A stretch of 64,000 nucleotides of DNA from assembly GCA_964649705.1 (NCBI GenBank), contig CAZYRM010000003.1:29850-93849 (forward strand), written 5' to 3'. Source of the stretch: an uncultured Planctomycetia bacterium (GTDB lineage: Bacteria > Planctomycetota > MHYJ01 > WSZJ01 > CAZYRM01). Positions 4,665 through 50,508 of the stretch are shown here, piece after piece (positions within the stretch are counted from its first letter, which is position 1; each line of letters starts with the position of its first letter). A program made the position numbers and the translations under genes. The notes under the pieces were generated by a model. It was not told the DNA's origin, did no database searches, and worked only from the letters and a program-made list of their open reading frames with translations.

Positions 4665-4710
4665 CGATTCGATATCTGATATCTGACATCTGAGGTCTGA
4701 TATCAGATAT
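4665..4710. repeat. AT-rich palindromic element copy A (GATATCTGATATC family)
   Basis: cgatatctgatatctgacatctgaggtctgatatcagatatg; arms are reverse complements; member of family also at 4767, 35858, 37531, 50006, 50453. Confidence 0.75.
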
Positions 4711-4766
4711 GTTCCGGGCATCCGGCGTGGTCAGCAGTCGCCAAGGTGATCGCCAGGCCGCGCGGC

Positions 4767-4818
4767 TGGGGCCGATATCTGATATCAGACCTCAGATATC
4801 AGATATCAGATATCGGCC
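4767..4818. repeat. AT-rich palindromic element copy B
   Basis: ggccgatatctgatatcagacc tcagatatcagatatcagatatcggcc: 17-bp perfect terminal inverted repeat; lies in divergent promoter region between acyltransferase and mlaE. Confidence 0.75.
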
Positions 4819-4947
4819 GCCCAACCACGCCGCGGACCTCCACCACGTACTGCGGCCACCAAGCCCCGCCTCGACCTCCACCCGTCTCGTTGACTTCCCG
4901 TCCCCCCCGGGTACAATCCCTCGATTCCATCCTCTCCGAGGGGCGAC

Positions 4948-5757
4948 GTGGCCGACACGAAAGAGTCCTCCGAGCCCGCGATCTACGCCTTCTTCGGCGG
5001 GATCGGCCACGAGTTGCTGGCGATGTTCAGCGGCTTCGGCGCGTTCGGCCTCCTCTTCCTCCGCGTCATCGTACGCCTGTTCCGGAAGTGGCCCAGCCGG
5101 AAGATCCTGCTCCTCCAGATGTTCAACATCGGGCCGAAGTCGCTCGTGGTCGTCCTGACCACCGGCTGCTTCACCGGCGCCGTGATCGCCGTCCAGAGCT
5201 ACTTCCAGTTCAAGCGCATGCAGGTCGAGACCATGCTCGGCGCCATCGTCGGCGTCACCATGGTCAAGGAGCTCGGCCCCGTGCTCACGGGCCTCATGCT
5301 CGCCGGCCGCGTCGGCGCCGCCATGACCGCTGAGCTCGGCACGATGAAGGTCACCGAGCAGATCGACGCCCTCTCGGCCATGGCCACCGACCCGATCAGC
5401 CACCTCATCCTCCCCCGCTTCGTCGCCTGCGTCCTCCTCATGCCCATCCTCGCCATCCTCTCCGACACCGTCGGGATCCTCGGCGGCTACTTCCTCTCCG
5501 TGGTGGTCCTCGACGTCGATCACTTCTACTACGTCTACCACACCAAGGAATGGGTTGACGTCTGGGACATCCTCGGAGGCCTGATCAAGTCGTCGATCTT
5601 CGGCGCCCTGATGTGCCTCATCTGCTGCTACAAGGGCTTCAACTGCGGCCCCGGCGCCTCGGGCGTCGGCAAGGCGACCACGGAGAGCGTCGTCACCTCG
5701 AGCATCACGATTCTGATCAGCGACTTCTTCCTGACCGTCATGCTCTTCCGCATGTGA
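4948..5757 (+). CDS. mlaE: MlaE-family ABC transporter permease
   Basis: 269-aa multi-TM ORF with conserved MlaE/Ttg2B motifs (LGPVLTGLMLAGRVGAAMTAELGTMKVTEQIDAL). Confidence 0.85.
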   Translation: MADTKESSEPAIYAFFGGIGHELLAMFSGFGAFGLLFLRVIVRLFRKWPSRKILLLQMFNIGPKSLVVVLTTGCFTGAVIAVQSYFQFKRMQVETMLGAIVGVTMVKELGPVLTGLMLAGRVGAAMTAELGTMKVTEQIDALSAMATDPISHLILPRFVACVLLMPILAILSDTVGILGGYFLSVVVLDVDHFYYVYHTKEWVDVWDILGGLIKSSIFGALMCLICCYKGFNCGPGASGVGKATTESVVTSSITILISDFFLTVMLFRM

Positions 5758-5758
5758 G

Positions 5759-6589
5759 ATGGCCGAGACTCCGCTCATCGACATCGTCGACGTCCACAAG
5801 ACGCTGGGCGAGAAGCGCGTCCTCGCGGGCGTGAACCTCTCCATCGGGCGGGGGGAGTGCGTCTGCGTCATCGGCCAGAGCGGCACGGGAAAGAGCGTCC
5901 TCCTCAAGCACATCCTCGGCCTGATGGCGCCCGACAAGGGGCAGATCCTCGTCGAGGGGAAGGACATCACGAAGGCCACCATCCCCGAGTGGAACCTCTT
6001 CCGCCGCCGGGTCGGGATGGTCTTCCAGGGTTCCGCCCTCTTCGACTCGCTCACCGTCGGAGAGAACGTCGCGTTCGCCCTCCAGGAGCACACGGACCTC
6101 TCCGCGCGCCAGATCCGGAAGATCGTCGAGGAGAAGCTCTCGATCGTCGATCTTCCAGGGGTGGAGGGAAAGATGCCGGGCGAGCTGTCGGGCGGGATGC
6201 GGAAGCGCGTCGGGATCGCCCGCGGGCTCGCGACCGACCCCGAGATCATGCTCTTCGACGAGCCGACCACGGGCCTCGACCCCGTGCGCGCCGCGGAGGT
6301 GGACCACCTGGTGCTGCGCCTGCGCGACAAGCTGTCGAAGACGGTGATCGTGGTCACGCACGACATGGCGAGCGCCTACCGCATCGCCACGCGGATCGCC
6401 ATGCTTCACGACGGCACGATCCGCTTCCTCGGGACGCCCGCCGAGGTGAAGGGCGCGGAGGACCCGTTCGTCCACCAGTTCATCAACGGCCTGATCGAGG
6501 GGCCCATCAAGAGCGAGTCCACGCGGACCTGGCAGCGCGACGAGGGCGGCTCCCCCATCGTCGGGAGCGCGGGGAAGGGGGCGAACTGA
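5759..6589 (+). CDS. mlaF: MlaF-like ABC transporter ATP-binding protein
   Basis: Walker A GQSGTGKS, signature LSGGMRKRVGIARGLA, Walker B IMLFDEPTTGLD; starts 2 nt after mlaE stop. Confidence 0.9.
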   Translation: MAETPLIDIVDVHKTLGEKRVLAGVNLSIGRGECVCVIGQSGTGKSVLLKHILGLMAPDKGQILVEGKDITKATIPEWNLFRRRVGMVFQGSALFDSLTVGENVAFALQEHTDLSARQIRKIVEEKLSIVDLPGVEGKMPGELSGGMRKRVGIARGLATDPEIMLFDEPTTGLDPVRAAEVDHLVLRLRDKLSKTVIVVTHDMASAYRIATRIAMLHDGTIRFLGTPAEVKGAEDPFVHQFINGLIEGPIKSESTRTWQRDEGGSPIVGSAGKGAN

Positions 6590-6590
6590 C

Positions 6591-7577: not shown

Positions 7578-7587
7578 GAGGTCGACC

Positions 7588-8682: not shown

Positions 8683-8692
8683 GGAGACGACG

Positions 8693-20749: not shown

Positions 20750-21090
20750 GCCGTTACCACAGAGTACGGAGGGCACGGAGATGCCATCGTACCGATGGGC
20801 GGGCTGTGACAACTCGGCGGCCGCGGCGACCGAGGAGGCGCGCCGCGCGGAGCGCGGCGCGGCGGCGGGGACGGACAAGGGCGGGACAGAGGGCGTGGTT
20901 GCTCCTATCACGCCGTGGCCGATGAACCGCCCAGCCCTAGTCGAGGGCCCCGAGCCCGCAACCCTCTGTCCCCGCCCTGTCCGTCCCCTCCGCCCGTCGG
21001 CCTCGGGCCGACGGCCTCCTCGGCGCCGTGGCCGCTGCGTTGTACGAGCACGATGGAACGGCCGACGGCATCTCTGTGGGCTCCGTGGCT
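20750..21090. other. Structured intergenic region with nested long-range inverted repeats (candidate ncRNA or palindromic element)
   Basis: accacagagtacggagggcacggag (20757-20781) pairs with ctccgtggctctgtggt (21064-21080); inner pair gacaagggcgggacagaggg (20872-) with ccctctgtccccgccctgtc (20961-); local hairpin ggcgtg...cacgcc; no long clean ORF. Confidence 0.3.
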
Positions 21091-21168
21091 CTGTGGTGAA
21101 CTCATCGCCTGGACGACGCAGGCGATCGAGTTGCGGGCAACGCCGTCGCTCGCGCCTCGATGGCTCCC

Positions 21169-26873: not shown

Positions 26874-27445
26874 GGACGAACCGCGCGCGCATTGAGGCGG
26901 CGATCGTGCAGTCGATCGCGGTCAAGCACCTGTTCCTCGCCACGCGGGTGGAGGTGCTCTGCCGGATCGCGGACGCGGCCAGCACGGCCCTCCGCCGCGG
27001 TGGGAAGATCGTGCTGTTCGGCAATGGAGGCAGCGCGGCCGACGCGTGCCATATTGCGACGGAGCTGGTCGGTCGGTTCAAGAAGGACCGCCGCGCCATT
27101 CCGGCCCTCGCGCTGGGGACAAACGTGCAGCTCCTGACGGCCATTGCGAACGACCTGGGTTACGAGGAGTCGTTCGCGCGCGAAGTAGACGCGCACGTGA
27201 CGAGGAAGGACCTGGTCATCGCGATCAGCACGAGCGGGAACTCGCCAAACGTCCTGCGCGCGGTCGCGCGCGCGAAGGCGAAGGGAGCGCTGGTCGCGGG
27301 ATTCACGGGGGCGAAGGGCGGAAAGCTGCGCTCGCGCGTCGACCTGCTGCTGGACGTCCCCTCGGACGACACGCCGCGGGTCCAGGAGTGCCACCTGCTT
27401 GCGGGGCACATCCTGTGCGAGGTGATCGAGGCCGAGACCAGCTAG
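26870..27445 (+). CDS. gmhA: Phosphoheptose isomerase (SIS domain)
   Basis: ATG overlapping hldE stop; SIS motifs GNGGSAADA, ISTSGNS; 3' 60-200 bp re-occur as fragments at 35647 and 37446. Confidence 0.85.
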   Translation: MRTNRARIEAAIVQSIAVKHLFLATRVEVLCRIADAASTALRRGGKIVLFGNGGSAADACHIATELVGRFKKDRRAIPALALGTNVQLLTAIANDLGYEESFAREVDAHVTRKDLVIAISTSGNSPNVLRAVARAKAKGALVAGFTGAKGGKLRSRVDLLLDVPSDDTPRVQECHLLAGHILCEVIEAETS

Positions 27446-27498
27446 CCCGATCCCTCGGGGCCATGTCCGATGTCTGAAGATCAGGCAGTAGCGCGATT

Positions 27499-28188: not shown

Positions 28189-28439
28189 GTCATCTCCTGC
28201 TCAAGAGGGGCGGAAGGCCACCATTCGGACACCCCAGATGGAAGGGTTTTGGGGATCGCGTGCAAGCCGTCGGATGGGGGAGGCTGATTCGCCTGTCGCC
28301 CCGACAGGTGGTCACGGAGAGTCCGTGCCCTCCCCCTGGACCACCGGCGCCGGTGGCCTTCGCGCTTCGCGGGGAGTCTGGGCGTTGTGATCGACCCCGA
28401 TGGTCGTTAGAATCGGCGATTACGCGGTGCGGCGGAGAG

Positions 28440-29300
28440 TTGCCAGGTCGAGCTGAGAAGGGCGCCTCCATCAACTTCCTGTTCTGGAATATCGCACGGA
28501 AGCGTCTAGAGACCGATATCGCGCGGTTGGTCCGGGAGCACCACATCGATCTAATCGTACTCTGCGAGTGTACTGTGCCCGTCGGCGCACTGCTGCGCGC
28601 ACTCGGGCAAGTCGCGGCTCCCTTCAACCGAAGCGAGAGAGTACTCCCGGACAGCGGGCTGGAGATCCTGATTCGGTACCCAGCGGAGTTCCTCAAGAAG
28701 TGCCACGATTCGATCGGAATGACGGCGAAGAAGCTCTGCCTCCCTGCAGCAGAGGAAATCCTGCTCACGGTCATGCACCTGCCCAGCCGATTACACTGGT
28801 CGACCGACGCTCAGGCCGCGGAGTGCCATAGAGTGGCGGGGGTTCTCCGGGCGATCGAGGAGAGGATCGGGCATCGCCGCACGGTGCTCGTCGGGGACTT
28901 CAATGTGAACCCGTTCGCATCAGGGATGACCTCCCCCTATGCGTTCCGCGGCGTTTCTACAACGGCAATCGCGAAGAGGGGTGAGGGTATCGTTCGCGGG
29001 GAATCATGGCCGTTCTTCTACAACCCGATGTGGAGTTGCCTGGGGGACCGATCCCCCGGGCCTCCGGGCACCTACTTCAATGACACAGGAACCGCCGACT
29101 GCCTCTTCTGGTACACTCTCGATCAGGTGCTGCTACGGCCCGAGCTCCTGGATCGCTACCCGCTATCGTCGATTCGGATTCTCGATTCCATCGAAGGCAC
29201 CTCATTGTTGAAGGCGAATTCTGGAATACCCGATCGCAAGCGGTTCTCCGATCACCTTCCCTTGCTGTTTTCGTTGGATGTGACCCCGAACGGAGGCTAG
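28440..29300 (+). CDS. Endonuclease/exonuclease/phosphatase (EEP) family protein
   Basis: INFLFWNI N-terminal strand, LVGDFNVNP, C-terminal SDHLPL catalytic His motif; start codon uncertain (TTG 28440 in frame; no in-frame ATG nearby); region GC markedly lower than flanks. Confidence 0.6.
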   Translation: MPGRAEKGASINFLFWNIARKRLETDIARLVREHHIDLIVLCECTVPVGALLRALGQVAAPFNRSERVLPDSGLEILIRYPAEFLKKCHDSIGMTAKKLCLPAAEEILLTVMHLPSRLHWSTDAQAAECHRVAGVLRAIEERIGHRRTVLVGDFNVNPFASGMTSPYAFRGVSTTAIAKRGEGIVRGESWPFFYNPMWSCLGDRSPGPPGTYFNDTGTADCLFWYTLDQVLLRPELLDRYPLSSIRILDSIEGTSLLKANSGIPDRKRFSDHLPLLFSLDVTPNGG

Positions 29301-29302
29301 AG

Positions 29303-29716
29303 ATGTCGACGACCGAGCAGCCCAGCAGCCTCTGGCCCAAGGACTTGGTCGACCGTGCCGTAGAGGCGCCGATCGCGATCCTCAAGGAACAGGGCTCGGA
29401 ACTTCAGAAGTTGACCAAGAACATGCTCAAGGGGGAGCCGCGAGTGACGAAGGTGCCGGGGGAAGACGGGGATCGCCTGATCGTCTCATTCGTCGTAGTC
29501 GCGCCCGCCCTCGCCGACTACGAGGTGGAGCTCCTCTCCTTCGAGCAATCGACGTCGCTCTATCCGATTGAAGTGTCCTCCATGGGCTTCAAGTTGCCGA
29601 AATCCAGAATCTCGTCGGCTGAGCAGTTCCGTCATTACCTGAGAGGGAAGCTGGCGACCCCCAAGGTGAAGAACGTGATCAGTTCACTCTTGGCGCAGGC
29701 CAAGGCCATCAGCTAG
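29303..29716 (+). CDS. Hypothetical protein
   Basis: 137-aa ORF starting 3 nt after EEP stop; lower GC. Confidence 0.45.
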   Translation: MSTTEQPSSLWPKDLVDRAVEAPIAILKEQGSELQKLTKNMLKGEPRVTKVPGEDGDRLIVSFVVVAPALADYEVELLSFEQSTSLYPIEVSSMGFKLPKSRISSAEQFRHYLRGKLATPKVKNVISSLLAQAKAIS

Positions 29717-29916
29717 CAGAGGTGCTGGGGGAGCTCCGCGACCCGAAGGGATCGGACACGCGACGAGGCGGGTCCCGACGGTCAAGTCGAGCGTGAATGG
29801 CTTCAGACCCGCTCGCAGGGCGGATCGGAAGGCGTCGGGGGTTTCCGATCTGCCCTCTATCACTCCCCGTCGCGCGGGAGAGCGATCGAGTACCTCTCCG
29901 TCTGAATACTCGACGC

Positions 29917-30465
29917 CTACGGGGCCTGCCAGATGATCTTTCCGTTCGCATCGAGGAGAGTGACGCTCGGGAGTCCATTCACGTCCACGCCCTCGGCCAC
30001 GCGAATCTTGCCGTTCGAATCGAAGAGGGTGAGGCTCGGGGATCCATCCACGTCCACGCCCTCTGCTACGCGGAGCTTGCCGTCCGCGTCGCGGAGAGTG
30101 AGATACGGGGACCCTGAGGGGAGCACGCCCACTGCCGTACGGAGCTTCTCGTTGCCGTCGAGAAAACGAAGGGCCGGGGGCCCGTTCGGATCGATGCCCA
30201 AGAACATGAGCGACTTCCCGTCCGCGCTGGACATTTCGAGGGTCGGGGAGTCTCCCTGCCCCACGATCTCGCGCACGTGCAACACCGCGCGTTCCTGCCC
30301 GTCCGTGTCCCGCAGGACGAATTTCGTCGCCTCCACGGTCCCGTCAGGCGAGGTCCATCCCACTGCGACCAAGGCGGCGAAAGCGAGGGACAGCAGAGCC
30401 ACAGCGCCCTTGAGGTGGCGGTTCGACCGCTCCAGGCGGTCGAGACGGTCGGTCAGGTTGTCCAT
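29917..30465 (-). CDS. Membrane-anchored protein with ~20-aa tandem repeats
   Basis: N-terminal TM/signal anchor; repeats GSPYLTLRDADGKLRVAEGVDVDGSPSLTLFDSNGKIRVAEGVDVNGLPSVTLLDANGKI. Confidence 0.5.
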   Translation of the reverse strand: MDNLTDRLDRLERSNRHLKGAVALLSLAFAALVAVGWTSPDGTVEATKFVLRDTDGQERAVLHVREIVGQGDSPTLEMSSADGKSLMFLGIDPNGPPALRFLDGNEKLRTAVGVLPSGSPYLTLRDADGKLRVAEGVDVDGSPSLTLFDSNGKIRVAEGVDVNGLPSVTLLDANGKIIWQAP

Positions 30466-30868
30466 GGTGTTCCTCCTGAAAAGTACGGTGGCCAGCCTAC
30501 AGAGGCGAGTCTCTCACGTCACGCCGTTTGCGTTTCGTCGCGGTGCCCCTCACTGGACGGCGCGGGAGTGATCTGCGGGTCCCCCAGCTCGCGGAAGGCG
30601 AGTTCGACGAGGTCATGCACGAGCGCGTCGAACGGGCCGCGCTGCCGCGTCGGCGGCCAGAGTCAGATAGCCGCGGAGGGAGAACGCCCGCAGGTACAAT
30701 CTGAGTTCGTTGCGCCAGCGACGCGCGCTGAGTTCGACGTCCTCGTGCTTCCCCTCCTCCACCACAGACCGGGACGGGATCGTGAAGGCACGCGTCGCTC
30801 GATCGACCTCTGGATTGCAGTGGGCGGCGCGAGGTACCATCTGCTACATGCCGCCGTAGGAGAGGACG

Positions 30869-33800
30869 ATGGTGGACGACGCGAGCAGCCCGCCCGCTAG
30901 TAGCACGGACGCTCAACCCAGCGAGCACCTCGCCGGGGACCTTCTACGAGGGGTGCCAGGCACCGTCTCCACTGAGCCTTCGGGGACGGGCTCTGCTGAT
31001 CTCGAAACGCCCCACTCAGGGTTGTCGACGCTCTCGCTGGCGAAGCCAGCTGCGGCGATCGCTGCTGAAGGGCCTACGCCCGACGCGGCGACACCTCTGC
31101 TCACGGGACTGACGTGGGCTTGGCCGAACGTGCCGCGGCGGCTCGGCCAATACGAATTGGTCGGAGAGCTGGGCCATGGCGGGATGGGGATCGTTTTCCG
31201 TGCGCGGCACGTGAAGCTGGGGACGGAATGCGCGGTGAAGGTCCTCATCGCCGGGGAGCACGCCTCACCCGAGATGATGTCGCGGTTCCAGCGCGAGGCG
31301 GCGGCGGTCGCCAGGATGGGGAAGCACCCAAACATCGTTACGGTTTTCGATCTCGGACAGGAGGGCAGCCTCTTCTACTACGCGATGGAGCTGGTGGACG
31401 GCATGTCGCTCTCTAGGCTCTTGCGCGAGCGGGGGGGAGAGTTCACACCCCAAGAGACGGCAGTCCTCGTGGAACAGGTCGCACGCGCGGTCCACTTCGC
31501 ACATGCGCACAAGGTGATTCACAGGGACCTGAAGCCCGACAACATCGTGGTGCGCACCATCTCGACTGGCGCGAGCATCGCTTGGGAGCCGCAAGTGATG
31601 GACTTCGGCCTCGCGCGCGACATCGGATCCGCGGAGAAGCTCTCCGTGACCGGGCATGTGATGGGCTCGCCGAACTACATGGCCCCCGAGCAGGCCTGGG
31701 GGAGGCACGAGGAGAGCGACGCGCGAACGGACGTCTACGGGCTCGGTGCAATTCTCTACCAGATGCTCGCGGGCTTTCCTCCGCATCCCGGTAGGGACCA
31801 GTACAAGGTCATAGACGACATTCGGAGAGGCAAGGAGGTCGTCCTGCCCAGGCGAGTGCGGTCCGACGCACCCAAGGACCTGGAGACGATTTGCCTCAGG
31901 TGCCTGGAGGTAGTGCAGGGCAAGCGCTATCCAACCGCGGAGGCCCTCGCCGAGGACCTCGCGAGGTTCAGGCGCGGGGAGCCAGTCCACGCGCGGCCGG
32001 TGTCCTTGGCGTCGCGGGCATGGCGTAGAGCAGTGCGGCACTGGCGGGTCGTCTTGCCGAGCACTGTGGCGGTCGGCGTGGCCCTCGCGTTCGGGCTCTA
32101 CGCGGTCGTAAGTCATTTCCGGCACGTTCGAGATCTCGACGCGGAGCAGGGGAGGACGCAGGCGGCGCTGCTGAAGACAGAGGATGCACTCACGATCGCC
32201 GAGGAGGCGAAGGTCTTGGCGCAGGCCTCGGAGGCTCGAGAGGGGAGGCTCAAGCGGAGATCCCAGGCAGAGGCGGAGATCCTCAAGGCGCAACGAGACT
32301 CGAACGCTGGGAACCAAATGAACGCCCTGGCCCACGCGATTGCCTCTGTGCGACTCCGCCCAGGGGCTGTTGCCGCAGAGGAGGCGTGGCGGGCACACGC
32401 ATTCGCACCCGCTGTCCGTTGGTGCTCACCGAGCAAGGTAGGCCACCAGGACTCCCTCAGGTGGGTCTCGTTCAGCCCAGATGGGAGCCGGATACTCTCC
32501 GTGTCCCTGGACAACACGGTTCGTTCTTGGGAGGTGTCCTCGGGGAAGGAGCTTGTTCGCCACGATGTGCATACGAGCGGCGTCATGTGCCTCGCGCTCA
32601 GCTCGGACGGTACCCGGCTCGTGTCGTTCTCGCCAGACAACGCAGGCTCCGTGTGGGACACGGCCACCGGGAGGGAGGTGGTCCGCCTCGAGGGGCATAC
32701 GATGCTCGTCATAAACCTCGCGCTCAGCCCGGACGGTACCCGTGTAGTATCAGGGTCCGCGGACAACACGGTTCGCATCTGGGACGCGGACTCGGGCGAG
32801 GAGTTAGCTCGCCCTGAAGGGCACCCAAAATTCGTCTCCTCCTTGGCCTTCAGCCCGGACGGCAAGCGAGTTGCCGTGGCTGGTGACTGGGTCGGGATCT
32901 GGGACGTCGCGTCAGCGAAGCTCGTGGCACGCCTCGAAGGGGATAATTTCCGTGTCCATGAGGTTGCCTTCAGCCCGGATGGCGCCCGAGTCGTTGGGGT
33001 GCTAGACGACAGCGCTATCCGAATCTGGGACGCGCCTTCGGGCAAAGAGTTGGCGCGCCTCCAAGGCGATGCGGGGTATGTCACTTGCCTCGCTCTCAGC
33101 CCGGACGGGAACCACGTCGTCTCGGGGTCTGTCGACAACTCGATTCGTCTGTGGGACACAGCCTCAAGGAAGGAGACGGCTCGTCTCCAGGGGCATAGGG
33201 CGCCCGTGAGGTCGGTCGCCTTCAGTCCAGACGGGAGTTGGGTCGTCTCGGGATCGGACGACCACACGGTCCGTCTCTGGGATACGGCCCCGAGGAAGGA
33301 GGTCGGCCGTATCGAGGGGCACACCAACATCGTAAGTTCCATTGCCTTCAGCCCGGATGGAAGCCGACTTGTGACGGGATCCGGCGACAACACGCTCCGC
33401 CTCTGGAACGCGACGACCGGCAGGGAGATCACCCGCTTCGAAGGGCATACAGAGATGGTCCATTCGGTCGCCTTCAGTCTGGACGGGACCCATCTCGCCT
33501 CGGGATCCGGTGACGACACGGTCCGCCTTTGGGACGTGGCGACAGGGAAGGAGGTGGGCCGGCTCGAAGGGCATACAGGGTGCGTCATTTCGGTCGACTT
33601 TAGCCCAGACGCGAGCCGAGTCCTGTCGCGTTCCGATTCGACCGCCAGCCTCTGGAACCTCGCCTCGGGGAAGGAGGTCGCCCGCATCGGCGGGCAGGAC
33701 GACTTCGTGACGAACGTTTCTTTCAGCCCAGATGGCAGGTGGATCGTCTCCGCCTTGGGCGGCAGCACGATTCACCTCCTAGACGCGGCCTCTGGAAGGG

Positions 33801-35122
33801 AGGTAGCTCGCCTCACGGGACATACGGACATGGTGTGTCGGGTCACCTTCAGCCTTGACGGCATGCGGCTCGTCTCGGGATCCCTGGACAACACCATACG
33901 CATATGGGATGCGGCCTCTGGGAAGGAGGTGAGTCGCCTTACCGGGCATACGGGCTCCGTCACTTTCGTCGCGTTCGCCCTGGACGGGACCAGGGTCGTC
34001 TCCGCGTCACTGGACGACACGGTCCGGCTCTGGGACGTAGCGTCGGAGAGCGAGGTGGCCAAGTTGGAACGGGTAAAGAGCGATGGCACGGCCCTCAGCC
34101 TCAGCCCGGACGGGGCTAGGATTGCAAGGAGTGGAGTCGACGGGGTGCTGCTCTGGGACGCAGCGTCAGGTAAGGAGGTGGCCCGGTTTGCGGGACCTAC
34201 CAGGAGTTTCATGCCCGTAGTGTTCAGCCCAGACGGGAGTCGGATTGCGTTGGTCGGGGTCGAGGAGGGGGTCCGAGTTCTTGACGCAGCCTCGGGAAGG
34301 GAAGTAGCCCGGCTCGGGGGCCATAGCGACGAGGTTACGTGCGTTGCGTTCAGCCCTGATGGTACCCGTGTCGTCTCGGCGTCGTCGCTGGACGGGACTG
34401 TCCGTCTCTGGGACGCCGCGTCCGGGGGAGAGATAGCGTGCCTCAAGGGACACGCCGAGACCGTCTCGTCCGTAGCCTTCAGCCTGGACGGCACCAGGGT
34501 GGTTTCGGGGTCCCACGACAAGACGATTCGGGTTTGGGACGCGAGTTCAAGCAAGCAGCCGGCTCCCTTTGAGGGGCATGCGGATCGCGTTGCGTTCGTC
34601 GCGTTCAGCCCCGATGGAACCCGGATCGTCTCGGCGTCCAAGGACAAGACGGTCCGGCTCTGGGACGCGGACTCGGGGGAGGAGGTAGGACGGCTCCAGG
34701 GGCATACGGCCCCTGTCAGGGTGGTCGCCTTTAGCCCCGACGCGATGTGGGTGACTTCGGAGGACTCTAACGGAGTGGTCCTACGTTGGAATGCGACCAC
34801 AGGCGCACCGGTCCAGGAATCTGACGAGGCAGCAGCCAAGGCGTGTCTCGACGAGTGGCTCGCGATCCAGGGCCTGCGCGCGCCAACTCGCCTTCCCCAC
34901 GTCGGCGCAGTCATCCTGGAAGGTGAGGCCGAGTGGCGCACGGCATGGAGCGACCCCGAGCGGGGCGAAAACGGCCTCCCGAGGAAGGTGGCACGGATCC
35001 TCGACCGGTGGGAACATGATATCGGCATGCGAGTCGACATTGAGACGGGTAAACTCGTGCGCCTCTCGTGCCCCGGCCCCGCCTTCGCGAACGACCCTCA
35101 GATCGCACCGCTGTGCAAGTAG
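30869..35122 (+). CDS. Serine/threonine protein kinase fused to ~28 WD40 repeats (1417 aa)
   Basis: Hanks kinase motifs GELGHGGMGIVFRA, AVKVL, HRDLKPDNIVV, DFGLAR, APE; followed by regularly spaced WD40 units (GH...V.S.AFSPDG..V.SGS.D.T.RLWD). Confidence 0.85.
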   Translation: MVDDASSPPASSTDAQPSEHLAGDLLRGVPGTVSTEPSGTGSADLETPHSGLSTLSLAKPAAAIAAEGPTPDAATPLLTGLTWAWPNVPRRLGQYELVGELGHGGMGIVFRARHVKLGTECAVKVLIAGEHASPEMMSRFQREAAAVARMGKHPNIVTVFDLGQEGSLFYYAMELVDGMSLSRLLRERGGEFTPQETAVLVEQVARAVHFAHAHKVIHRDLKPDNIVVRTISTGASIAWEPQVMDFGLARDIGSAEKLSVTGHVMGSPNYMAPEQAWGRHEESDARTDVYGLGAILYQMLAGFPPHPGRDQYKVIDDIRRGKEVVLPRRVRSDAPKDLETICLRCLEVVQGKRYPTAEALAEDLARFRRGEPVHARPVSLASRAWRRAVRHWRVVLPSTVAVGVALAFGLYAVVSHFRHVRDLDAEQGRTQAALLKTEDALTIAEEAKVLAQASEAREGRLKRRSQAEAEILKAQRDSNAGNQMNALAHAIASVRLRPGAVAAEEAWRAHAFAPAVRWCSPSKVGHQDSLRWVSFSPDGSRILSVSLDNTVRSWEVSSGKELVRHDVHTSGVMCLALSSDGTRLVSFSPDNAGSVWDTATGREVVRLEGHTMLVINLALSPDGTRVVSGSADNTVRIWDADSGEELARPEGHPKFVSSLAFSPDGKRVAVAGDWVGIWDVASAKLVARLEGDNFRVHEVAFSPDGARVVGVLDDSAIRIWDAPSGKELARLQGDAGYVTCLALSPDGNHVVSGSVDNSIRLWDTASRKETARLQGHRAPVRSVAFSPDGSWVVSGSDDHTVRLWDTAPRKEVGRIEGHTNIVSSIAFSPDGSRLVTGSGDNTLRLWNATTGREITRFEGHTEMVHSVAFSLDGTHLASGSGDDTVRLWDVATGKEVGRLEGHTGCVISVDFSPDASRVLSRSDSTASLWNLASGKEVARIGGQDDFVTNVSFSPDGRWIVSALGGSTIHLLDAASGREVARLTGHTDMVCRVTFSLDGMRLVSGSLDNTIRIWDAASGKEVSRLTGHTGSVTFVAFALDGTRVVSASLDDTVRLWDVASESEVAKLERVKSDGTALSLSPDGARIARSGVDGVLLWDAASGKEVARFAGPTRSFMPVVFSPDGSRIALVGVEEGVRVLDAASGREVARLGGHSDEVTCVAFSPDGTRVVSASSLDGTVRLWDAASGGEIACLKGHAETVSSVAFSLDGTRVVSGSHDKTIRVWDASSSKQPAPFEGHADRVAFVAFSPDGTRIVSASKDKTVRLWDADSGEEVGRLQGHTAPVRVVAFSPDAMWVTSEDSNGVVLRWNATTGAPVQESDEAAAKACLDEWLAIQGLRAPTRLPHVGAVILEGEAEWRTAWSDPERGENGLPRKVARILDRWEHDIGMRVDIETGKLVRLSCPGPAFANDPQIAPLCK

Positions 35123-35646
35123 AGCAACAGGGTCGACTCTGGACGCGTGCTGCCCTTCGCTTTCCTCAGCTCAGGGAGGCGTTTTCGACGCTTCCCTCTG
35201 CGTCATTGCCGCCAGCAGCTTCAGGTTTCTCTCCTCCTCCCCACCCTCCCGCAGACCCTGCTCGCACCTCCTTCGCAGTTCCGCGATCCACGCGGCCAGC
35301 GGTCGCCCGCCGAACGGCGGCGCAGCGGCGCTGGCTCCCCATTCCGCGATTCCACCTCCTCCCGCCCGTTTTCCCCTGGTCCCCTCCCCCGCGCAAAGTG
35401 GCCCCCTGCGGGACCGCGATCAACACGAGCGGGCCACGCGGCGCGGCCGGGGAGGCCCCGGAGCGCTTGCGCGCATCGTAGGGTTGCAGAAACGGCGGGT
35501 GGAGCGCGGATTTGTTTCGTGTAAGGGTAGCACTACACCGGGCGACGGTAGCATCGTGTCGGGCACGGGAAGCCTCGCATCGGACGAGGGAAGCATCCCG
35601 TCGGCTGGGGCATCCCCTTCGAGCCCCCCCGGCCCATTGCTGTCCG

Positions 35647-35859
35647 CCGAACGTGCTTCGCGCGGTCGCCAGGGCGAAGGCGGTCGGCGCGATGGTCGTC
35701 GGCTTCACCGGCGCGAAGGGCGGGAAGCTGCGCTCCCGCGTCGACATGCTGCTCGACGTCCCCTCGGACGACACGCCGCGGGTCCAGGAGTGCCACCTGC
35801 TGGCGGGGCACATCCTGTGCGAGGTCGTCGAGGCCGAGGTGTCCGGGGGGTCTCTTTGA
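35647..35859 (+). pseudogene. Duplicated 3' fragment of gmhA (71 C-terminal codons)
   Basis: Translates PNVLRAVARAKAVGAMVVGFTGAKGGKLRSRVDMLLDVPSDDTPRVQECHLLAGHILCEVVEAEVSGGSL*, ~90% identical to GmhA C-terminus encoded at 27236-27445; no upstream SIS N-terminus. Confidence 0.7.
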
Positions 35860-35946
35860 TATGTGATATCTGCTATGAGATATCTGATATGGGCATCGGG
35901 GCCTCCATATCAGATATGTCATAGCAGATATCACATATCAGATATC
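35858..35946. repeat. AT-rich palindromic element copy C (complete hairpin: 34-bp arms, 15-nt loop)
   Basis: gatatgtgatatctgctatgagatatctgatatg - ggcatcggggcctcc - atatcagatatgtcatagcagatatcacatatcagatatc; arms reverse-complementary with 1 mismatch; begins inside stop codon of gmhA fragment. Confidence 0.8.
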
Positions 35947-36105
35947 TTGTGGGGACTCGGTTCCCCTGTACTGCCGCGTTGCTGGCACATCGCTCTCGGG
36001 TCCATCTCTGGTGTTTTCGAGGCGTCCGTCGCCCTCCCGGGGGCGTGTCGCGGAACTGGGACGCGATTCTGTGACCGGGGGCCCGGGCCGTCCCAAAACG
36101 CGACG

Positions 36106-36195
36106 GGCGGATCGTCGCGGGTCTCCCGCGCATCGTCGCGAGTCTCCCGCGCATCGTCACGAGTCTCCCGCGCATCGTCACGAGTCTCCCGCGAT
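36106..36195. repeat. 21-bp tandem repeat x ~4.3 (gagtctcccgcgcatcgtcac)
   Basis: Direct read: gtctcccgcgcatcgtcgcga / gtctcccgcgcatcgtcacga / gtctcccgcgcatcgtcacga / partial. Confidence 0.7.
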
Positions 36196-36439
36196 CGGCT
36201 GGGCGTCTACGCCTCTTGCCCATCTCGCCTGGGGGCCTCGCGCAGGTCGGACCAGAGGAGCGCCCGGTTCCCCTCGAAGCCGTGGGCCACGCGGCGGGTT
36301 GCGAGGATCAGGCGGACGTCGGCGTCGTCGGAGAGTCGCTCCATGAGCCGGCTGACGACCTCGTAGCCGAGATCGACAGGGTCGGCGAGGTATCGGTTCC
36401 TGACCGCCTGACGGGAGGAGACTCGCCCGGCGCCCCGAG

Positions 36440-37346
36440 CTAGTCGTCCTTCGCGGTCGGGCGCCAGATGATCATGTCTTTCATCTGGTCGTCCCGGAGG
36501 TGGTCCAGGACCACGAAGCGCTTGTCCTGAGTGTTCTGGTGGACGATCGACGAGCCCGTCTGCTTCGGGAGCGGCTTGATGAGCACCATCACGTGCATGG
36601 GGTTGGTGAGCACGTCTCCCGGGAGCGCGTCCTTCCACTGGATCTTCTTGCCGAACTTGTAGCCGCCCTGCACCCCGAAATCCTGGCGCCCCAGCCGCCA
36701 CATCGGGTCCCCGGGCAGCTCGCTGCACTCGCCGGAGCGCACCTGCTGACCCACGCGCGAGAACGCGAACAGGAGGATCTCCTGGTTCATCGCCGGCAGG
36801 AGACCGAGGTCGCACACCTTCGCGTAGTCGCACCCGTCGGCCTTGGGCAGCTCCTGCGCCTGGCGCTGCGCGACGCTGCCCTTCTTGAGGTCGAACACCG
36901 TGAGGTGCAGCGACGGCTTGCCGCCGGTGGTCTTGACGCGCGGCTCGATCAGGTACTCCGCGTGCTGCTTGTCCTTCCATTCGGCCACGTCCTCGTTCTT
37001 GAACAGGACTCCCTTCGGCAGGGCCCCCTCGGCGTACTCCACCTTCAGCGGATGCTCGGCCTCGGCCTTGAAGAGGTAGACGCCGTTCTTGAGGAGCGCC
37101 TGCTGCAGGGCGAGCTGAATCTGCCCGCACGAGGCCTGGAGCGGGTCGGCCTCGGTCTCGCAGCGCACCTGGAGCATGGCGACGACCGACTCCTTCGTGA
37201 GGCCGACGACCTGCTTGCCGACCTTCGTCAGGCCGGCGGAGAGCACGGCGCGCGCCTTGTCGTCCTCGGCGCCGACAGGCACGAGGCCGCGGGCCAGCAG
37301 AAGCGCGATCACGAGCACCCAGGACGTTCCACGATGCGGCATGGCG
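36440..37346 (-). CDS. Secreted hypothetical protein (cargo of 1.6-kb cassette)
   Basis: Signal peptide MPHRGTSWVLVIALLLARGLVPVGA; 302 aa, Lys-rich, GC lower than flanks; start could also be upstream ATG at 37474. Confidence 0.55.
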
Positions 37347-37445
37347 GGCCCTCCTCGCGCCCGCCCCGCGTCGACCCAGGCCAGGTCGCAGGAGCGAGCG
37401 ATACCATCCCAACGGATCGGAGGGTGGCTTGTCAAGGGTCGATGG

Positions 37446-37510
37446 ACCAGGAGGGCCACCTGCTGGCGGGGCACATCCTCTGCGAGCTGATCGAGGCTTC
37501 GTGCCGGTAG
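37446..37510 (+). pseudogene. Second duplicated 3' fragment of gmhA (~21 codons)
   Basis: accaggagggccacctgctggcggggcacatcctctgcgagctgatcgaggc -> QEGHLLAGHILCELIEA, cf. GmhA VQECHLLAGHILCEVIEAETS. Confidence 0.55.
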
Positions 37511-37530
37511 CCAGGGTGTTCTCCGGACCC

Positions 37531-37655
37531 TATCAGATGTCAGATGTCATATCTCAGATGTCTGATATCGTCGCCCCTGACCTCCAGCCGGCCCGTTCCT
37601 GACAAGATGCGACGACATCAGACATCTGAGATATGACATCAGACATCTGATATCT
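37531..37655. repeat. AT-rich palindromic element copy D (42-bp arms separated by 35-bp spacer)
   Basis: tatcagatgtcagatgtcatatctcagatgtctgatatcgtcg ... cgacgacatcagacatctgagatatgacatcagacatctgatatc; right arm supplies last 5 codons + stop of ABC transporter. Confidence 0.75.
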
Positions 37656-47802: not shown

Positions 47803-47805
47803 TCC

Positions 47806-47883: not shown

Positions 47884-47902
47884 GCACCCCGGCCGATGAT
47901 CC

Positions 47903-48391
47903 ATGTGGAGGCAGTTCCACATGGCCAGCTTCTCCCGCCGTGCCCATCGCGACTACGAGCGCTCGAACGACGTCCTCGAGCTGACGATCGCCCCCGCGAC
48001 TGACGCGGTGGAGGCGGCCTCGCGGCTCGCGGGAGGGCTCGTCGCGAACGACCGTATCGCCGTAGAGGTCGCGAGCCAGGCGATCGTCTCGTCGCTCTGC
48101 CGCTCGCTCGGCGTGCGGGACCTCCCCGTCAAGGTCGGGTACAAGCGCCTGGTGCGGGGGCGCGTCCAGTTCTACGGGTTCTGCGGCAAGGACGGGTACA
48201 TGACCCTGTACTTCCGCACGGGGAAGACGAACAAGCCCGTCGCGCACAAGACCTACCTCAGGACGCTCGTCCACGAGCTGACTCACCACCTCGACTGGGT
48301 CCACCTGCGGCTCCTCCACTCCTTCCACACGAAGGGGTTCTACGGGCGCGTCCGGAGCCTCTACCAGGGCCTGCTGGACCCCCTGCCGTAG
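47903..48391 (+). CDS. Small putative zinc metallopeptidase (HExxH)
   Basis: HELTHHLD motif; SprT/DUF45-like size. Confidence 0.5.
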   Translation: MWRQFHMASFSRRAHRDYERSNDVLELTIAPATDAVEAASRLAGGLVANDRIAVEVASQAIVSSLCRSLGVRDLPVKVGYKRLVRGRVQFYGFCGKDGYMTLYFRTGKTNKPVAHKTYLRTLVHELTHHLDWVHLRLLHSFHTKGFYGRVRSLYQGLLDPLP

Positions 48392-48465
48392 CCGGAATTT
48401 CGCCTCTCACGACGCCGCCCCGGGCCGTACTACCCTCCCACATCCATCCAACAAGGGGGAACGCC

Positions 48466-49668: not shown

Positions 49669-49721
49669 CTGGACGGGCGGGGAGAGGCGTGGCAAGATGA
49701 GGCTCCCCACGAGGAGGGAGC

Positions 49722-49958
49722 ATGAAGTACCTGAAGACCGCGCAGTACGTCCCGGGCAAGGGCGAGGCGTGGATGTACTACGAGCTGGACGACCAGATGA
49801 CGGTCCAGCGGTACTGCACGCACATTCCGATGACGGGAGAGAGCGAGCACGTCGCGGACCCGATCATCAAGCAGCTCTTCCGGCCGGAGATGATGCAGAC
49901 CTCGACGGAAGCGGAGTTCGTCGAGCACTGGAACATCGCGCCTGGAGCGAAGGCGTAG
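49722..49958 (+). CDS. Small hypothetical protein (78 aa)
   Basis: ORF with RBS-like GGAGGGAG upstream. Confidence 0.4.
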   Translation: MKYLKTAQYVPGKGEAWMYYELDDQMTVQRYCTHIPMTGESEHVADPIIKQLFRPEMMQTSTEAEFVEHWNIAPGAKA

Positions 49959-50005
49959 TCCGACGTCGACGCGCCAGCAGCGTTGCCCTTGGGGGTCTGG
50001 CGGGC

Positions 50006-50054
50006 GAGGCCTCCATATCAGATATCTCATAGCAGATACCACATATCACATATC
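50006..50054. repeat. AT-rich element copy E (single arm = right arm of copy C)
   Basis: gaggcctcc atatcagatatctcatagcagataccacatatcacatatc vs copy C ggggcctcc atatcagatatgtcatagcagatatcacatatcagatatc. Confidence 0.7.
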
Positions 50055-50441
50055 TTCCGAGCCCGAGGCGGGAAGGGACTTCTTCGCCGTGGCGAGGGAC
50101 TTGGAAAAGACGAGCACGAGCTCCTGACACTCGCCGACGAGACGGTTCAGGCTCTTGGCTGTCACGTAGCCCGCCCGGGTCACCAGGCGTAGCCAGTAGA
50201 GCGACTCGCGAAGCTCCTTCAGGGCGATGTGGTACTTGTGGACGAAGTCGGCCTTGCTCTCCGCAGCCCGGGCCTCCTCGTAGTTCGCGCCAGGGGAAGT
50301 CGCCGATCGCAGGAGCTGGTCTCCGCAGTGCCGCGCCGCCTTCGAATGCGGCAGCGCCTCGACCAGCTTCAGCACCCGAACGGCGAACTCCACCAGCCGT
50401 TCGCTCAGCGCCTCAGCCATCCCGTCTCTCCACGTCGACAT
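50046..50441 (-). CDS. Four-helix-bundle protein (23S rRNA intervening-sequence protein family, PF05635/TIGR02436-like)
   Basis: 131 aa; family hallmarks ...ARHCGDQLLRSATS...NYEEA... and RESLYWLRL; flanked by inverted AT-rich repeats E and F. Confidence 0.75.
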   Translation of the reverse strand: MSTWRDGMAEALSERLVEFAVRVLKLVEALPHSKAARHCGDQLLRSATSPGANYEEARAAESKADFVHKYHIALKELRESLYWLRLVTRAGYVTAKSLNRLVGECQELVLVFSKSLATAKKSLPASGSEDM

Positions 50442-50452
50442 GTCGAACCCTC

Positions 50453-50508
50453 CTATGTGATCTGGGATATCTGATATGTGATATCTGATATGTGATATTG
50501 GATATGCG
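50453..50508. repeat. AT-rich element copy F (inverted relative to E)
   Basis: ctatgtgatctgggatatctgatatgtgatatctgatatgtgatattggatatg; reverse complement resembles copy E. Confidence 0.7.

What the first reader, a model, noticed from the sequence alone, without database searches (positions are those of the whole stretch)
4665..50508. Family of AT-rich palindromic 'GATATCTGATATG' elements (>=6 copies) in a ~68% GC genome
Near-identical AT-rich motifs built from GATATCTGATAT[CG] units occur at 4665-4710, 4767-4818, 35858-35946, 37531-37655, 50006-50054 and 50453-50508. There is also a decayed remnant at ~27446-27500. Copies B and C are complete hairpins with 17-34 bp arms. D has 42-bp arms around a 35-bp spacer. 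E and F are single arms in inverted orientation flanking a gene. All copies sit in intergenic positions or overlap gene 3' ends: D supplies the last five codons (KISDV*) of the ABC exporter, and C overlaps the stop of the gmhA fragment. This behaves like a REP/MITE-type mobile palindrome family and generates local out-of-frame 'proteins' (MISAMRYLIW...) in the ORF track.
Basis: seen in the sequence. Interest (0 to 1): 0.7.

Follow-up and report, generated by a model that had tools for sequence, protein, structure and literature searches.

The report
Heptamer-armed hairpins around an IVS-protein gene
The AT-rich GATATCT motifs are the paired arms of four hairpin elements, one of which encloses a small four-helix-bundle gene of the type found inside ribosomal-RNA intervening sequences; the same layout, this gene between inverted arrays of 7-base repeats, holds for most relatives of the gene sampled from many bacterial phyla.

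Summary
In detail: GATATCTGATAT with one mismatch occurs 26 times against 0.03 expected. The six "copies" are eight arms of four inverted-repeat elements, each arm made of 5-7 tandem heptamers (GATA-NNN). El1 is 4670-4815, El2 35857-35946 and El3 37531-37652; all three lack an ORF. El4 (50014-50506) encloses a 131-aa PF05635/TIGR02436 "23S rRNA intervening-sequence / four-helix-bundle" gene. All four fold into very stable hairpins (z -9 to -13 for El1-3).

In 77 metagenomic loci encoding relatives of this protein, period 7 is the top periodicity in 61 upstream and 63 downstream flanks. 58 of 77 have complementary flanking arms, against 0 of 29 controls. The heptamer sequence differs between loci. 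Distant family members and five cyanobacterial or Chloroflexota plasmids show the same layout, as does the published Coxiella 23S rRNA IVS.

Related genomes have hairpins at the same three sites with diverged heptamers; one relative has an empty site. I found no transposase, RAYT or reverse transcriptase, and no target-site duplications.

Best reading: IVS-like cassettes located outside rRNA, plus ORF-less hairpins carrying the same arms. RNase III processing and protein binding to the heptamers are inferred. The REP/MITE reading is only partly supported.

The parts
4670..4710 (.). El1 left arm, about 6 heptamers (GATATCT / GACATCT / GATATCA)
   Evidence: I3: 41 nt, 98% complementary to 4775-4815; period 7, 5.7 copies
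4711..4774 (.). El1 spacer, 64 nt and GC-rich, with no similarity to the PF05635 gene
4775..4815 (.). El1 right arm. The whole element folds at -99.8 kcal/mol (z -13). It lies between the divergent acyltransferase (3566-4600, -) and mlaE (4948-5757, +), upstream of a promoter-like site at 4890-4917.
27460..27490 (.). Decayed remnant of 2-3 heptamers (ATGTCCG ATGTCTG AAGATCA) just after the stop of the intact gmhA
35857..35946 (.). El2: ORF-less hairpin, arms 35857-35892 / 35905-35940 (36 nt, 97%), 12-nt loop, -60 kcal/mol (z -9.3). It follows a 194-nt copy of the gmhA 3' end (35645-35838).
   Evidence: (I10, D7, D11)
37531..37652 (.). El3: ORF-less hairpin, arms 37531-37574 / 37609-37652 (44 nt, 95%), 34-nt spacer, -73 to -87 kcal/mol. 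It sits between a 69-nt gmhA tail copy and the ABC exporter, and supplies the exporter's last codons (KISDV*).
   Evidence: (I2)
50014..50054 (-). El4 3' arm in gene orientation (TGATATG / TGGTATC / TGCTATG ...). The stop codon of the ORF lies inside it.
   Evidence: (I12)
50046..50441 (-). 131-aa four-helix-bundle protein (PF05635 23S_rRNA_IVP, TIGR02436). Basic (pI about 9). Under purifying selection against the ortholog in L200 (dN/dS 0.34).
   Evidence: E 4e-19; E 1e-26, above cut-off; PDB 2RLD, E 5e-29
50448..50453 (-). Shine-Dalgarno-like GGAGGG between the 5' arm and the ATG
   Evidence: direct reading
50454..50506 (-). El4 5' arm in gene orientation, 7.6 heptamers (GATATCA / CATATCA on the coding strand). 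In the predicted RNA it pairs with 50014-50054 and encloses the ORF.

Best explanation
The motifs are the arms of IVS-type hairpin cassettes located outside rRNA. The complete unit (El4) is a promoterless PF05635/TIGR02436 four-helix-bundle gene. It has 5-7 tandem heptamers directly upstream of its ribosome-binding site and the reverse-complement array over and after its stop codon. El1-El3 are ORF-less hairpins built from the same heptamer arms.

Shown here:
- the anatomy of the four elements;
- that this gene-between-inverted-heptamer-arrays layout holds for most sampled members of the gene family, in several phyla, while the heptamer sequence itself varies;
- that the arms stay complementary while diverging between orthologous and paralogous copies;
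- that the protein is under purifying selection.

Inferred mechanism, step by step:
1. The cassette is transcribed by read-through from the host gene upstream.
2. The two arms pair into a 36-45 bp A/U-rich duplex that encloses the ORF.
3. That duplex is processed by RNase III. This is demonstrated for the 23S rRNA IVS of Coxiella, where the cut lies at the first heptamer. Processing would insulate the host transcript from the insert.
4. The strict 7-nt period across unrelated heptamer sequences reflects a structural ruler. The most likely ruler is the basic, pentameric four-helix-bundle protein itself, binding one heptamer per subunit.
5. ORF-less hairpins persist as neutral or mildly useful RNA-end structures.

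How new copies arise is unknown. There is no transposase and no target-site duplication, and the turnover seen here is slow.
For: Anatomy and statistics in the window.

The ORF: PF05635; TIGR02436 above cut-off; PDB 2RLD.

Generality across 77 metagenomic loci:
- period 7 is the top period in 61 upstream and 63 downstream flanks;
- inverted-repeat score >=35 in 58/77, against 0/29 control positions 1.1-1.3 kb away;
- arm median 45 nt (5-7 heptamers), median 406 nt between arms (El4: 401);
- arm GC 0.35 against locus GC 0.55;
- only 6 other period-7 tracts in 275 kb of flanks.

Same layout in distant family members:
- L023, Bacteroidales, 37% identity, the same GATATCT heptamer;
- L008, Phycisphaerae, and L106;
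- five plasmids of Nostoc, Planktothrix, Anabaena, Pseudanabaena and Chlorohelix.

Coxiella 23S rRNA IVS (PMC4990558): terminal inverted repeats, GACAGAT heptamers upstream of the S23p ORF, RNase III cut at the first repeat.

RNA folds:
- El4 arms pair around the ORF in both the MFE and the centroid structure;
- El1-3 z -9 to -13.

Maintenance of pairing:
- orthologous El4 in L200 has different arms that are still complementary;
- orthologous El1 in L205 has GATACCC/GATAGCA heptamers;
- paralogous El2 and El3 have diverged, yet each is 95-97% self-complementary;
- the order of variant heptamers is mirrored in 30/49 loci.

Protein: dN/dS 0.34 and pI about 9.

Orientation: 22/37 cassettes are co-directional with both neighbours. 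Insertions inside cas operons are reported in PMC3936711.
Against: - No experiment bears on transcription, RNase III cleavage or protein binding in this organism.
- El1 lies in a divergent promoter region, where read-through is not obvious.
- Spacers of the ORF-less hairpins show no similarity to the PF05635 gene, so derivation by internal deletion is not supported.
- Only 3 of 101 small ORFs next to GATATCT-type arrays in other genomes are PF05635. Most arrays of this heptamer therefore stand alone.
- Proteins 68% identical carry entirely different heptamers (GATATCT in the window, CAAATTT in L203). This argues against sequence-specific recognition.
- One well-sampled cassette sits at the same locus with identical arrays in all samples, and Nostoc copies are parts of larger duplications. 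Mobility is therefore not demonstrated.
- The 80 metagenomic loci come from one subfamily (45-61% identity).
Confidence: 0.6

Rival explanations
1. Host cis-acting RNA or DNA elements (bidirectional terminators, mRNA 3'-end stabilisers or regulator-binding arrays), kept in place by selection. The PF05635 gene is then just one of several genes that carry them.
For: - All three sites are also occupied in the closest relative.
- El2, El3 and El4 lie at convergent gene ends.
- In L017 a loop-less GATATCA/GATATCT palindrome is followed by a T-run, like a terminator.
- Paired arrays of five heptanucleotides in Geobacter metallireducens were annotated as putative global-regulator sites (PMC2700814).
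Against: - The terminator scan around El1 (4400-5100) found no terminator-like site, and none of the four window hairpins is followed by a T-run on direct reading.
- El1 is in a divergent promoter region.
- The next relative has an empty site with no significant structure (L210, z +0.4), and the genes there are intact.
- The heptamer sequence is not conserved at orthologous sites, which a sequence-specific regulator would require.
- This reading does not explain why 58/77 PF05635 genes are bracketed by such arrays.
Confidence: 0.15
2. A REP/BIME- or MITE-type non-autonomous element, mobilised in trans by a RAYT, IS200/IS605 or other transposase encoded elsewhere in the genome.
For: - A dispersed palindromic family, intergenic and compositionally foreign.
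- Presence/absence among relatives.
- The same heptamer in very distant phyla.
Against: - No transposase-like domain in the Pfam-scanned ORFs that cover most genes of the window.
- No target-site duplications.
- The arms are tandem heptamers without a conserved REP head.
- The gene that sits between identical arms is a 131-aa helical-bundle protein, not a Y1 or DDE enzyme.
- Sites are stable between genomes whose flanks are 84-90% identical.
Confidence: 0.1
3. Neutral by-products: heptanucleotide microsatellites that expand by slippage and are copied into palindromes by template switching, with no function and no link to the protein.
For: - The heptamer sequence turns over quickly.
- Copy number varies among Coxiella strains.
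- Single, unpaired arrays exist (L007, L052).
Against: - The period is 7 in 61-63 of 77 flanks; no other period from 3 to 12 is enriched.
- Arrays have a narrow size (5-7 units) and a fixed position relative to the start and stop codons.
- Arrays were identical in all four contigs compared from one sampled population.
- AT-rich arms persist in a 68% GC genome while the enclosed gene has host-like GC3 of 0.79.
Confidence: 0.1

Closest known systems
23S rRNA intervening sequences that carry an S23p ORF (Leptospira; Coxiella burnetii, PMC4990558)
   Same: A PF05635-family ORF enclosed by terminal inverted repeats that form a long stem. Tandem heptamers (GACAGAT in Coxiella; CAGATGT/CAGATAT here, read in another register) lie at the 5' side of the stem, just upstream of the ORF. 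Size is about 430-500 nt. ORF-less versions also exist.
   Different: Here the elements lie between protein-coding genes, not in an rRNA helix (Rfam found no RNA family in the window). RNase III excision has not been tested. The protein here is under purifying selection, whereas the Coxiella ORF is described as decaying.
Geobacter metallireducens 'class 3 predicted global regulator binding sites' (PMC2700814)
   Same: Eight pairs of sites, each made of five tandem heptanucleotides (MTYCTGA), on opposite strands about 100 nt apart and between genes. This is the same design as El1-El3.
   Different: They were interpreted as regulator-binding sites. No link to a PF05635 gene was made in that paper, and I did not test one.
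Heptamer tandem repeats of Beggiatoaceae, Cyanobacteria and Bacteroidetes (TAACTGA repeats, PMC4679880) and cyanobacterial STRR sequences (from my own knowledge: Mazel et al. 1990)
   Same: Intergenic arrays of 2-6 heptamers with a patchy cross-phylum distribution. TAACTGA read as GATAACT differs from GATATCT by one base. On cyanobacterial plasmids such arrays flank PF05635 genes.
   Different: Those repeats were described as direct arrays near start codons, with no mechanism and no associated gene. Here the arrays come in inverted pairs, and one pair encloses a gene.
REP/BIME elements with RAYT transposases, and IS-derived MITEs
   Same: Short palindromic repeats, intergenic and multi-copy. 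A gene flanked by inverted copies of the repeat recalls a REPtron.
   Different: The flanked gene is not a Y1 transposase. The arms are tandem heptamers. There are no target-site duplications and no conserved REP head.
Avd accessory protein of diversity-generating retroelements (same Pfam family; from my own knowledge)
   Same: A small, basic, pentameric four-helix-bundle protein that binds nucleic acid.
   Different: No reverse transcriptase or template/variable repeat pair was found in the Pfam-scanned ORFs of the window.

Membership tests
PF05635 / TIGR02436 four-helix-bundle (23S rRNA IVS protein) | Profile match above the curated cut-off over the whole domain | tested here: met
   Pfam 69.2 bits against cut-off 33.8. 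TIGR02436 93 bits against cut-off 24. PDB 2RLD E 5e-29.
23S rRNA intervening sequence (S23p type) | Inserted in a helix of a 23S (or 16S) rRNA gene | tested here: not met
   Rfam gathering search finds no RNA family in the window. The flanks are protein-coding genes.
23S rRNA intervening sequence (S23p type) | Terminal inverted repeats forming a long stem that encloses the insert | tested here: met
23S rRNA intervening sequence (S23p type) | PF05635 ORF inside the loop | tested here: met
   Met for El4. El1-El3 have no ORF, as do the ORF-less IVSs reported in the literature.
23S rRNA intervening sequence (S23p type) | Tandem heptamers at the 5' side of the stem (described for Coxiella) | tested here: met
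23S rRNA intervening sequence (S23p type) | Excision from the precursor by RNase III | not testable with these tools
   Needs RNA end mapping in wild type and an rnc mutant.
REP / RAYT (REPtron) | A Y1 (RAYT) transposase gene flanked by, or co-occurring with, the repeats | tested here: not met
   No such domain in the scanned ORFs of the window. The gene between the arms is PF05635. The rest of the genome could not be searched.
REP / RAYT (REPtron) | A 20-40 nt imperfect palindrome with a conserved 5' head (GTAG-like) | tested here: not met
   The arms are 36-53 nt of tandem heptamers and have no common head.
MITE / IS-derived element | Terminal inverted repeats bounded by target-site duplications | tested here: not met
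   Flank matches are no longer than in permuted controls in 63 cassettes. None is visible at El1-El4 on direct reading.
MITE / IS-derived element | A parent IS with the same ends that encodes a transposase | tested here: not met
   The only coding element with the same ends encodes PF05635.
Diversity-generating retroelement (Avd module) | An adjacent reverse transcriptase and a template/variable repeat pair | tested here: not met
   No RT domain in the window. No TR/VR-like long repeat lies next to El4.
Prokaryotic heptanucleotide tandem-repeat arrays (STRR, TAACTGA, Geobacter class 3) | Intergenic tandem arrays of a 7-nt unit, about 4-6 units | tested here: met
   (period 7, 4.9-7.6 copies); for the published descriptions

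The most novel reading that the evidence does not exclude
PF05635 four-helix-bundle genes bracketed by inverted heptamer arrays are a distinct, very widespread class of selfish RNA-level cassette. The 23S rRNA intervening sequences would be only the special case that landed in rRNA. The pentameric protein would read the 7-nt period, one heptamer per subunit. The cassettes and their ORF-less relatives would then be the source of the enigmatic heptanucleotide tandem repeats of cyanobacteria (STRR), Beggiatoaceae and Bacteroidetes (TAACTGA) and Geobacter, which have had no mechanism since 1990.
Probability: 0.3. Interest if true: 0.85.

Novelty: new variant of a known kind. Interest (0 to 1): 0.62.

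Why it matters
PF05635/TIGR02436 is a very large family with no known function outside DGRs. A single-sequence search found 10,112 representatives of 50%-identity clusters. The origin of rRNA intervening sequences has been open since they were found.

Two results here make both questions testable. First, the gene is bracketed by inverted arrays with a strict 7-nt period but a free sequence in most loci sampled, across Planctomycetota, Bacteroidota, Cyanobacteriota, Chloroflexota and others. Second, ORF-less hairpins with the same arms sit elsewhere in the same genome. Together they give a concrete substrate for the protein (heptamer arrays) and a concrete processing model (RNase III on the arm duplex).

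The result also offers a possible source for heptanucleotide repeats that several genome papers reported without explanation.

For annotation, it explains spurious AT-rich ORFs, altered C-termini of neighbouring genes (KISDV* on the ABC exporter) and hairpins at rearrangement junctions.

I found no paper in the held library that states this association. Only the Coxiella IVS paper mentions heptamers next to an S23p ORF.

Tried and rejected
1. REP/RAYT or IS-derived MITE. No transposase, RAYT or RT domain in the window and no target-site duplications.

2. ORF-less hairpins as internal-deletion derivatives of the PF05635 cassette. The spacers of El1, El2, El3 and the L205 hairpin score no better than shuffles against the El4 and L200 interiors. 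Not supported.

3. Known RNA family. The Rfam gathering search of the window returned nothing.

4. Anti-phage defence protein. No PADLOC hit, although cyanobacterial and Chloroflexota copies sit inside cas, RM and DISARM operons.

5. Spread by phages. No relative was found in IMG/VR.

6. Recent transposition.
- The identical protein P0071 is at one locus only, with identical arrays, in the 22 contigs read.
- The Nostoc flagelliforme copies are parts of larger duplications.
- No clean filled/empty boundary could be derived from L210 against L208, because the segment is replaced rather than simply inserted.

7. Integrase-mediated island at the gmhA tail copies. No integrase in 27.5-37.5 kb.

8. 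Protein-heptamer co-variation. 68%-identical proteins carry unrelated heptamers, so simple sequence-specific recognition is unlikely. A loose shared heptamer consensus exists (3.83 bits against 2.37 +/- 0.16 in shuffled-unit controls), but the loci are not phylogenetically independent.

9. Genome-wide copy number in the source genome.
Full report
**1. The observation**

The sequence at the stated coordinates contains the motif. GATATCTGATAT with one mismatch occurs 26 times, against 0.03 expected from dinucleotide-preserving shuffles. Tandem Repeats Finder calls period-7 arrays of 4.9-7.6 units at each site. A scan for periods 5-9 finds no other tract in the 64 kb. The genome is 65-74% GC; the arms are about 30-35% GC.

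**2. The anatomy differs from "six copies"**

The repeat finder pairs the arrays into four inverted-repeat elements.

| Element | Arms | Arm length, complementarity | Between the arms |
|---|---|---|---|
| El1 | 4670-4710 / 4775-4815 | 41 nt, 98% | 64 nt |
| El2 | 35857-35892 / 35905-35940 | 36 nt, 97% | 12 nt |
| El3 | 37531-37574 / 37609-37652 | 44 nt, 95% | 34 nt |
| El4 | 50014-50052 / 50454-50492 | 39 nt, 87% | 401 nt |

- As RNA, El1-El3 fold at -55 to -100 kcal/mol (z -9 to -13) on either strand.
- El4's arms pair around the whole interior in both the MFE and the centroid structure.

**3. What El4 encloses**

- The 401-nt interior is an ORF (50046-50441, minus strand, 131 aa). It matches PF05635 "23S rRNA-intervening sequence protein" (E 4e-19), TIGR02436 "four helix bundle protein" (93 bits, cut-off 24) and the solved structure 2RLD.
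- In gene orientation the 5' arm ends 0-1 nt before a GGAGGG Shine-Dalgarno-like site, which lies 6 nt upstream of the ATG. The TGA stop lies inside the 3' arm.
- The exact protein occurs in Hainich groundwater metagenome contigs. NCBI names its source a Planctomycetota MAG.
- Against its ortholog in a related genome it shows dN/dS 0.34, and its pI is about 9. It is therefore a functional, basic protein.

**4. The layout holds across most of the gene family sampled**

I fetched 80 metagenomic loci encoding relatives of 45-61% identity and examined their flanks.

| Measure | Result |
|---|---|
| Loci with both flanks available | 77 |
| Period 7 is the strongest period from 3 to 12 | 61 upstream flanks, 63 downstream flanks |
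| Median best run, period 7 | 8-10 |
| Median best run, every other period, and controls | 3-4 |
| Upstream and downstream flanks reverse-complementary (score >=35) | 58/77, against 0/29 controls 1.1-1.3 kb away |
| Direct (non-inverted) similarity at that threshold | 9/77 |
| Median arm length | 45 nt (5-7 heptamers) |
| Median distance between arms | 406 nt |
| Upstream arm A-rich on the coding strand | 56/67 |
| Arm GC against locus GC | 0.35 against 0.55 |

- Only six other period-7 tracts occur in 275 kb of flanking DNA, and two of them are El1.
- The heptamer itself differs from locus to locus: CAAAAGG, GCAAATT, CGAATAT, GAACATC, CAACGCC, GGCGACA and others.
- After rotation the units share a loose consensus (3.83 bits against 2.37 +/- 0.16 for shuffled units). 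The loci are not independent, so this is weak evidence.
- Within a locus, the order of variant heptamers in one arm is mirrored in the other in 30/49 testable cases. The alignment was optimised on the true order, which favours this result.

**5. Distant members and cultured organisms**

A pattern scan of species-representative genomes found the GATATCT-type array in many phyla. Some hits in AT-rich genomes must be chance.

- Among 101 small ORFs adjacent to period-7 tracts in those loci, PF05635 was the most frequent family, with 3 members (one other family, VanZ, matched 2).
- L023 (Bacteroidales MAG, 39% GC, protein 37% identical) has GATATCT arms on both sides of the gene.
- L008 (Phycisphaerae) has CAGATAT/CAGAAGT upstream and CTGACNT downstream.
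- L106 has CAGATGA/CAGATAT upstream.
- tblastn against plasmids gave 29 records, mostly Nostocales. All five I inspected carry heptamer arrays on both flanks:

| Record | Upstream / downstream heptamers | Neighbouring genes |
|---|---|---|
| Nostoc flagelliforme | ATTCAAA x4 / TTTGAAT x4 | hypothetical protein, DNA cytosine methyltransferase |
| Planktothrix agardhii | AATCCCC x6 + AATCGTA x4 / TACGATT-type | DISARM drmD, MmeI-type RM enzyme |
| Anabaena cylindrica | GTAAAAA arrays on both sides | cas2, cas1 (antisense to both) |
| Ca. Chlorohelix | ATGAAGG / ATTCATA | helicase-related protein, N-6 DNA methylase |
| Pseudanabaena | TCTTCNN / GAAGANN | cas1 downstream |

- A single-sequence search of 1.84 billion cluster representatives found 10,112 family members at E <= 0.001.

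**6. Link to the literature**

- The Coxiella burnetii 23S rRNA IVS is a 428-nt element in helix 45 with a 28-bp terminal stem and an S23p (PF05635) ORF. Two or three GACAGAT heptamers, varying between strains, precede the ORF, and RNase III cuts at the first repeat (PMC4990558). This is the same design. In another register its heptamer (CAGATGA) is one base from El3's CAGATGT.
- PF05635 genes have been noted inside cas operons (PMC3936711) and in rRNA insertions of CPR bacteria at several sites (bioRxiv 10.1101/2024.02.27.582315). Their function is called unknown in both.
- Paired arrays of five heptanucleotides were annotated in Geobacter metallireducens as putative regulator sites (PMC2700814).
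- TAACTGA heptamer arrays were described in Beggiatoaceae, Cyanobacteria and Bacteroidetes with "no mechanism evident" (PMC4679880).
- Ten full-text searches found no paper that states the general association. The library lacks most subscription-journal papers, so this is not proof of novelty.

**7. Related genomes**

One groundwater contig (ERZ978523 k127_818397) is syntenic with the window, with flanks 84-90% identical.

- At the El4 site it has a PF05635 gene (68% aa identity) with GATATCT/GACATCT arms. The T-type units are upstream and the A-type units downstream, the reverse of the window, and the arms are still complementary.
- At the El1 site it has a roughly 200-nt hairpin whose arms are GATACCC/GATAGCA heptamers.
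- At the El3 site it has a shorter hairpin and the same KISDV* tail.
- A more distant relative (ABC exporter 83% identical) has an empty 30-nt intergenic site, a different C-terminus (VDTPRVDA*) and no significant structure.
- Another relative (75%) has a different, very stable hairpin with weak GCAA-NNN periodicity.
- A relative with MlaE 90% identical has no hairpin upstream of mlaE.
- A protein 68% identical to the window's sits in an unrelated context with CAAATTT-type arms.

So the sites persist over species-level divergence. The heptamers turn over fast while period and complementarity are kept, and occupancy differs among more distant relatives.

**8. What argues against classical mobility**

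- No transposase, RAYT, IS200/605 or reverse-transcriptase domain is encoded in the window.
- Flank matches in 63 cassettes are no longer than in permuted controls. None is visible at El1-El4.
- One widely sampled Terriglobia cassette is at a single locus with identical arrays.
- The Nostoc copies are parts of larger duplications.
- No relative was found in viral contigs.
- The spacers of the ORF-less hairpins are unrelated to the gene.

**9. Interpretation**

The evidence supports calling these IVS-like PF05635 cassettes located outside rRNA, together with ORF-less hairpins that share their arms. It does not support a REP/RAYT or IS-derived MITE.

The rest is inference. A 36-45 bp duplex closing the ORF is the kind of substrate RNase III cuts in rRNA IVSs. 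22 of 37 cassettes are co-directional with both neighbours (rough ORF-length heuristic), which fits dependence on host read-through.

An invariant 7-nt period with a variable sequence, 5-7 units per arm, points to a structural ruler. The one conserved partner is a basic protein whose homologues crystallise as pentamers; 2RLD lists five chains, and Xcc0516 is cited as a homopentamer in PMC4990558. I put the identity of the elements at about 0.6 confidence. The RNase III step and the protein-binding step are each lower.

**10. A local consequence**

Relatives have the ABC exporter and gmhA directly convergent. The window has about 10.2 kb of extra DNA between them, with lower GC3, a kinase-WD40 giant gene and an EEP-family nuclease-like gene. 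A copy of gmhA tail + hairpin, in two cases with about 30 nt of the ABC tail as well, sits at each junction. The hairpin site therefore appears to have been a rearrangement hot spot. No integrase is present.

Noticed in passing
window 27445-37640: About 10.2 kb of DNA lies between gmhA and the ABC exporter, which are directly convergent neighbours in three related genomes. It is bounded and interrupted by copies of the gmhA 3' end (27243-27447, 35645-35849, 37444-37512), each followed by a heptamer hairpin or remnant. It has lower GC3 and no integrase.
   Followed up: partly
window 30869-35122 (+): A 1417-aa protein with an N-terminal protein kinase domain and 17-18 WD40 repeats of 126 nt, inside the inserted segment.
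   Followed up: partly
window 21089-21100, 51601-51612, 51716-51727: A second short repeat, TTCACCACAGAG, with three exact copies against 0.14 expected. The two copies at 51.6-51.7 kb form a 47-nt inverted repeat in the intergenic region upstream of the comF-like gene.
   Followed up: partly
window 50014-50506 compared with L200 3950-4445: Between orthologous cassettes the polarity of both arms is swapped: GATATCT-type units are upstream in L200 and downstream in the window. The gene keeps its orientation relative to the flanks. Simple inversion cannot produce this, so each arm must have been replaced by its own complement.
   Followed up: partly
L216, L218, L219, L220 (cyanobacterial and Chloroflexota plasmids): PF05635 cassettes sit inside defence operons: between cas2 and cas1 (antisense), between DISARM drmD and an MmeI-type RM enzyme, between a helicase-related gene and an N-6 methylase, and next to cas1.
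   Followed up: no
L212-L215, 2501-2887: In a widely sampled Terriglobia population the cassette lies between a GH38 mannosidase gene and the RNA ligase gene rtcB, co-directional with both.
   Followed up: no
window 36107-36197: A 21-bp tandem repeat (GCGCATCGTCACGAGTCTCCC, 4.4 copies, 94% matches) in the 1.5-kb segment between El2 and El3.
   Followed up: no
window 29938-30102: A 69-bp tandem repeat (2.4 copies) within ORF 29917-30465 (-).
   Followed up: no
window 465-1319 and 1962-2124: Five repeats of about 171-177 nt in the first ORF, with GDxDGDG-type motifs, followed by a Gly/Tyr/His-rich 12-nt periodic stretch.
   Followed up: no
L017 3321-3366; L007 181-213; L052 5227-5267: ORF-less GATATCT/GATATCA arrays in other phyla take several forms. 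L017 is a loop-less palindrome followed by a T-run, in the same Bacteroidales MAG that holds the L023 cassette. L007 and L052 (a 67% GC Gemmatimonas MAG) are single unpaired arrays.
   Followed up: partly
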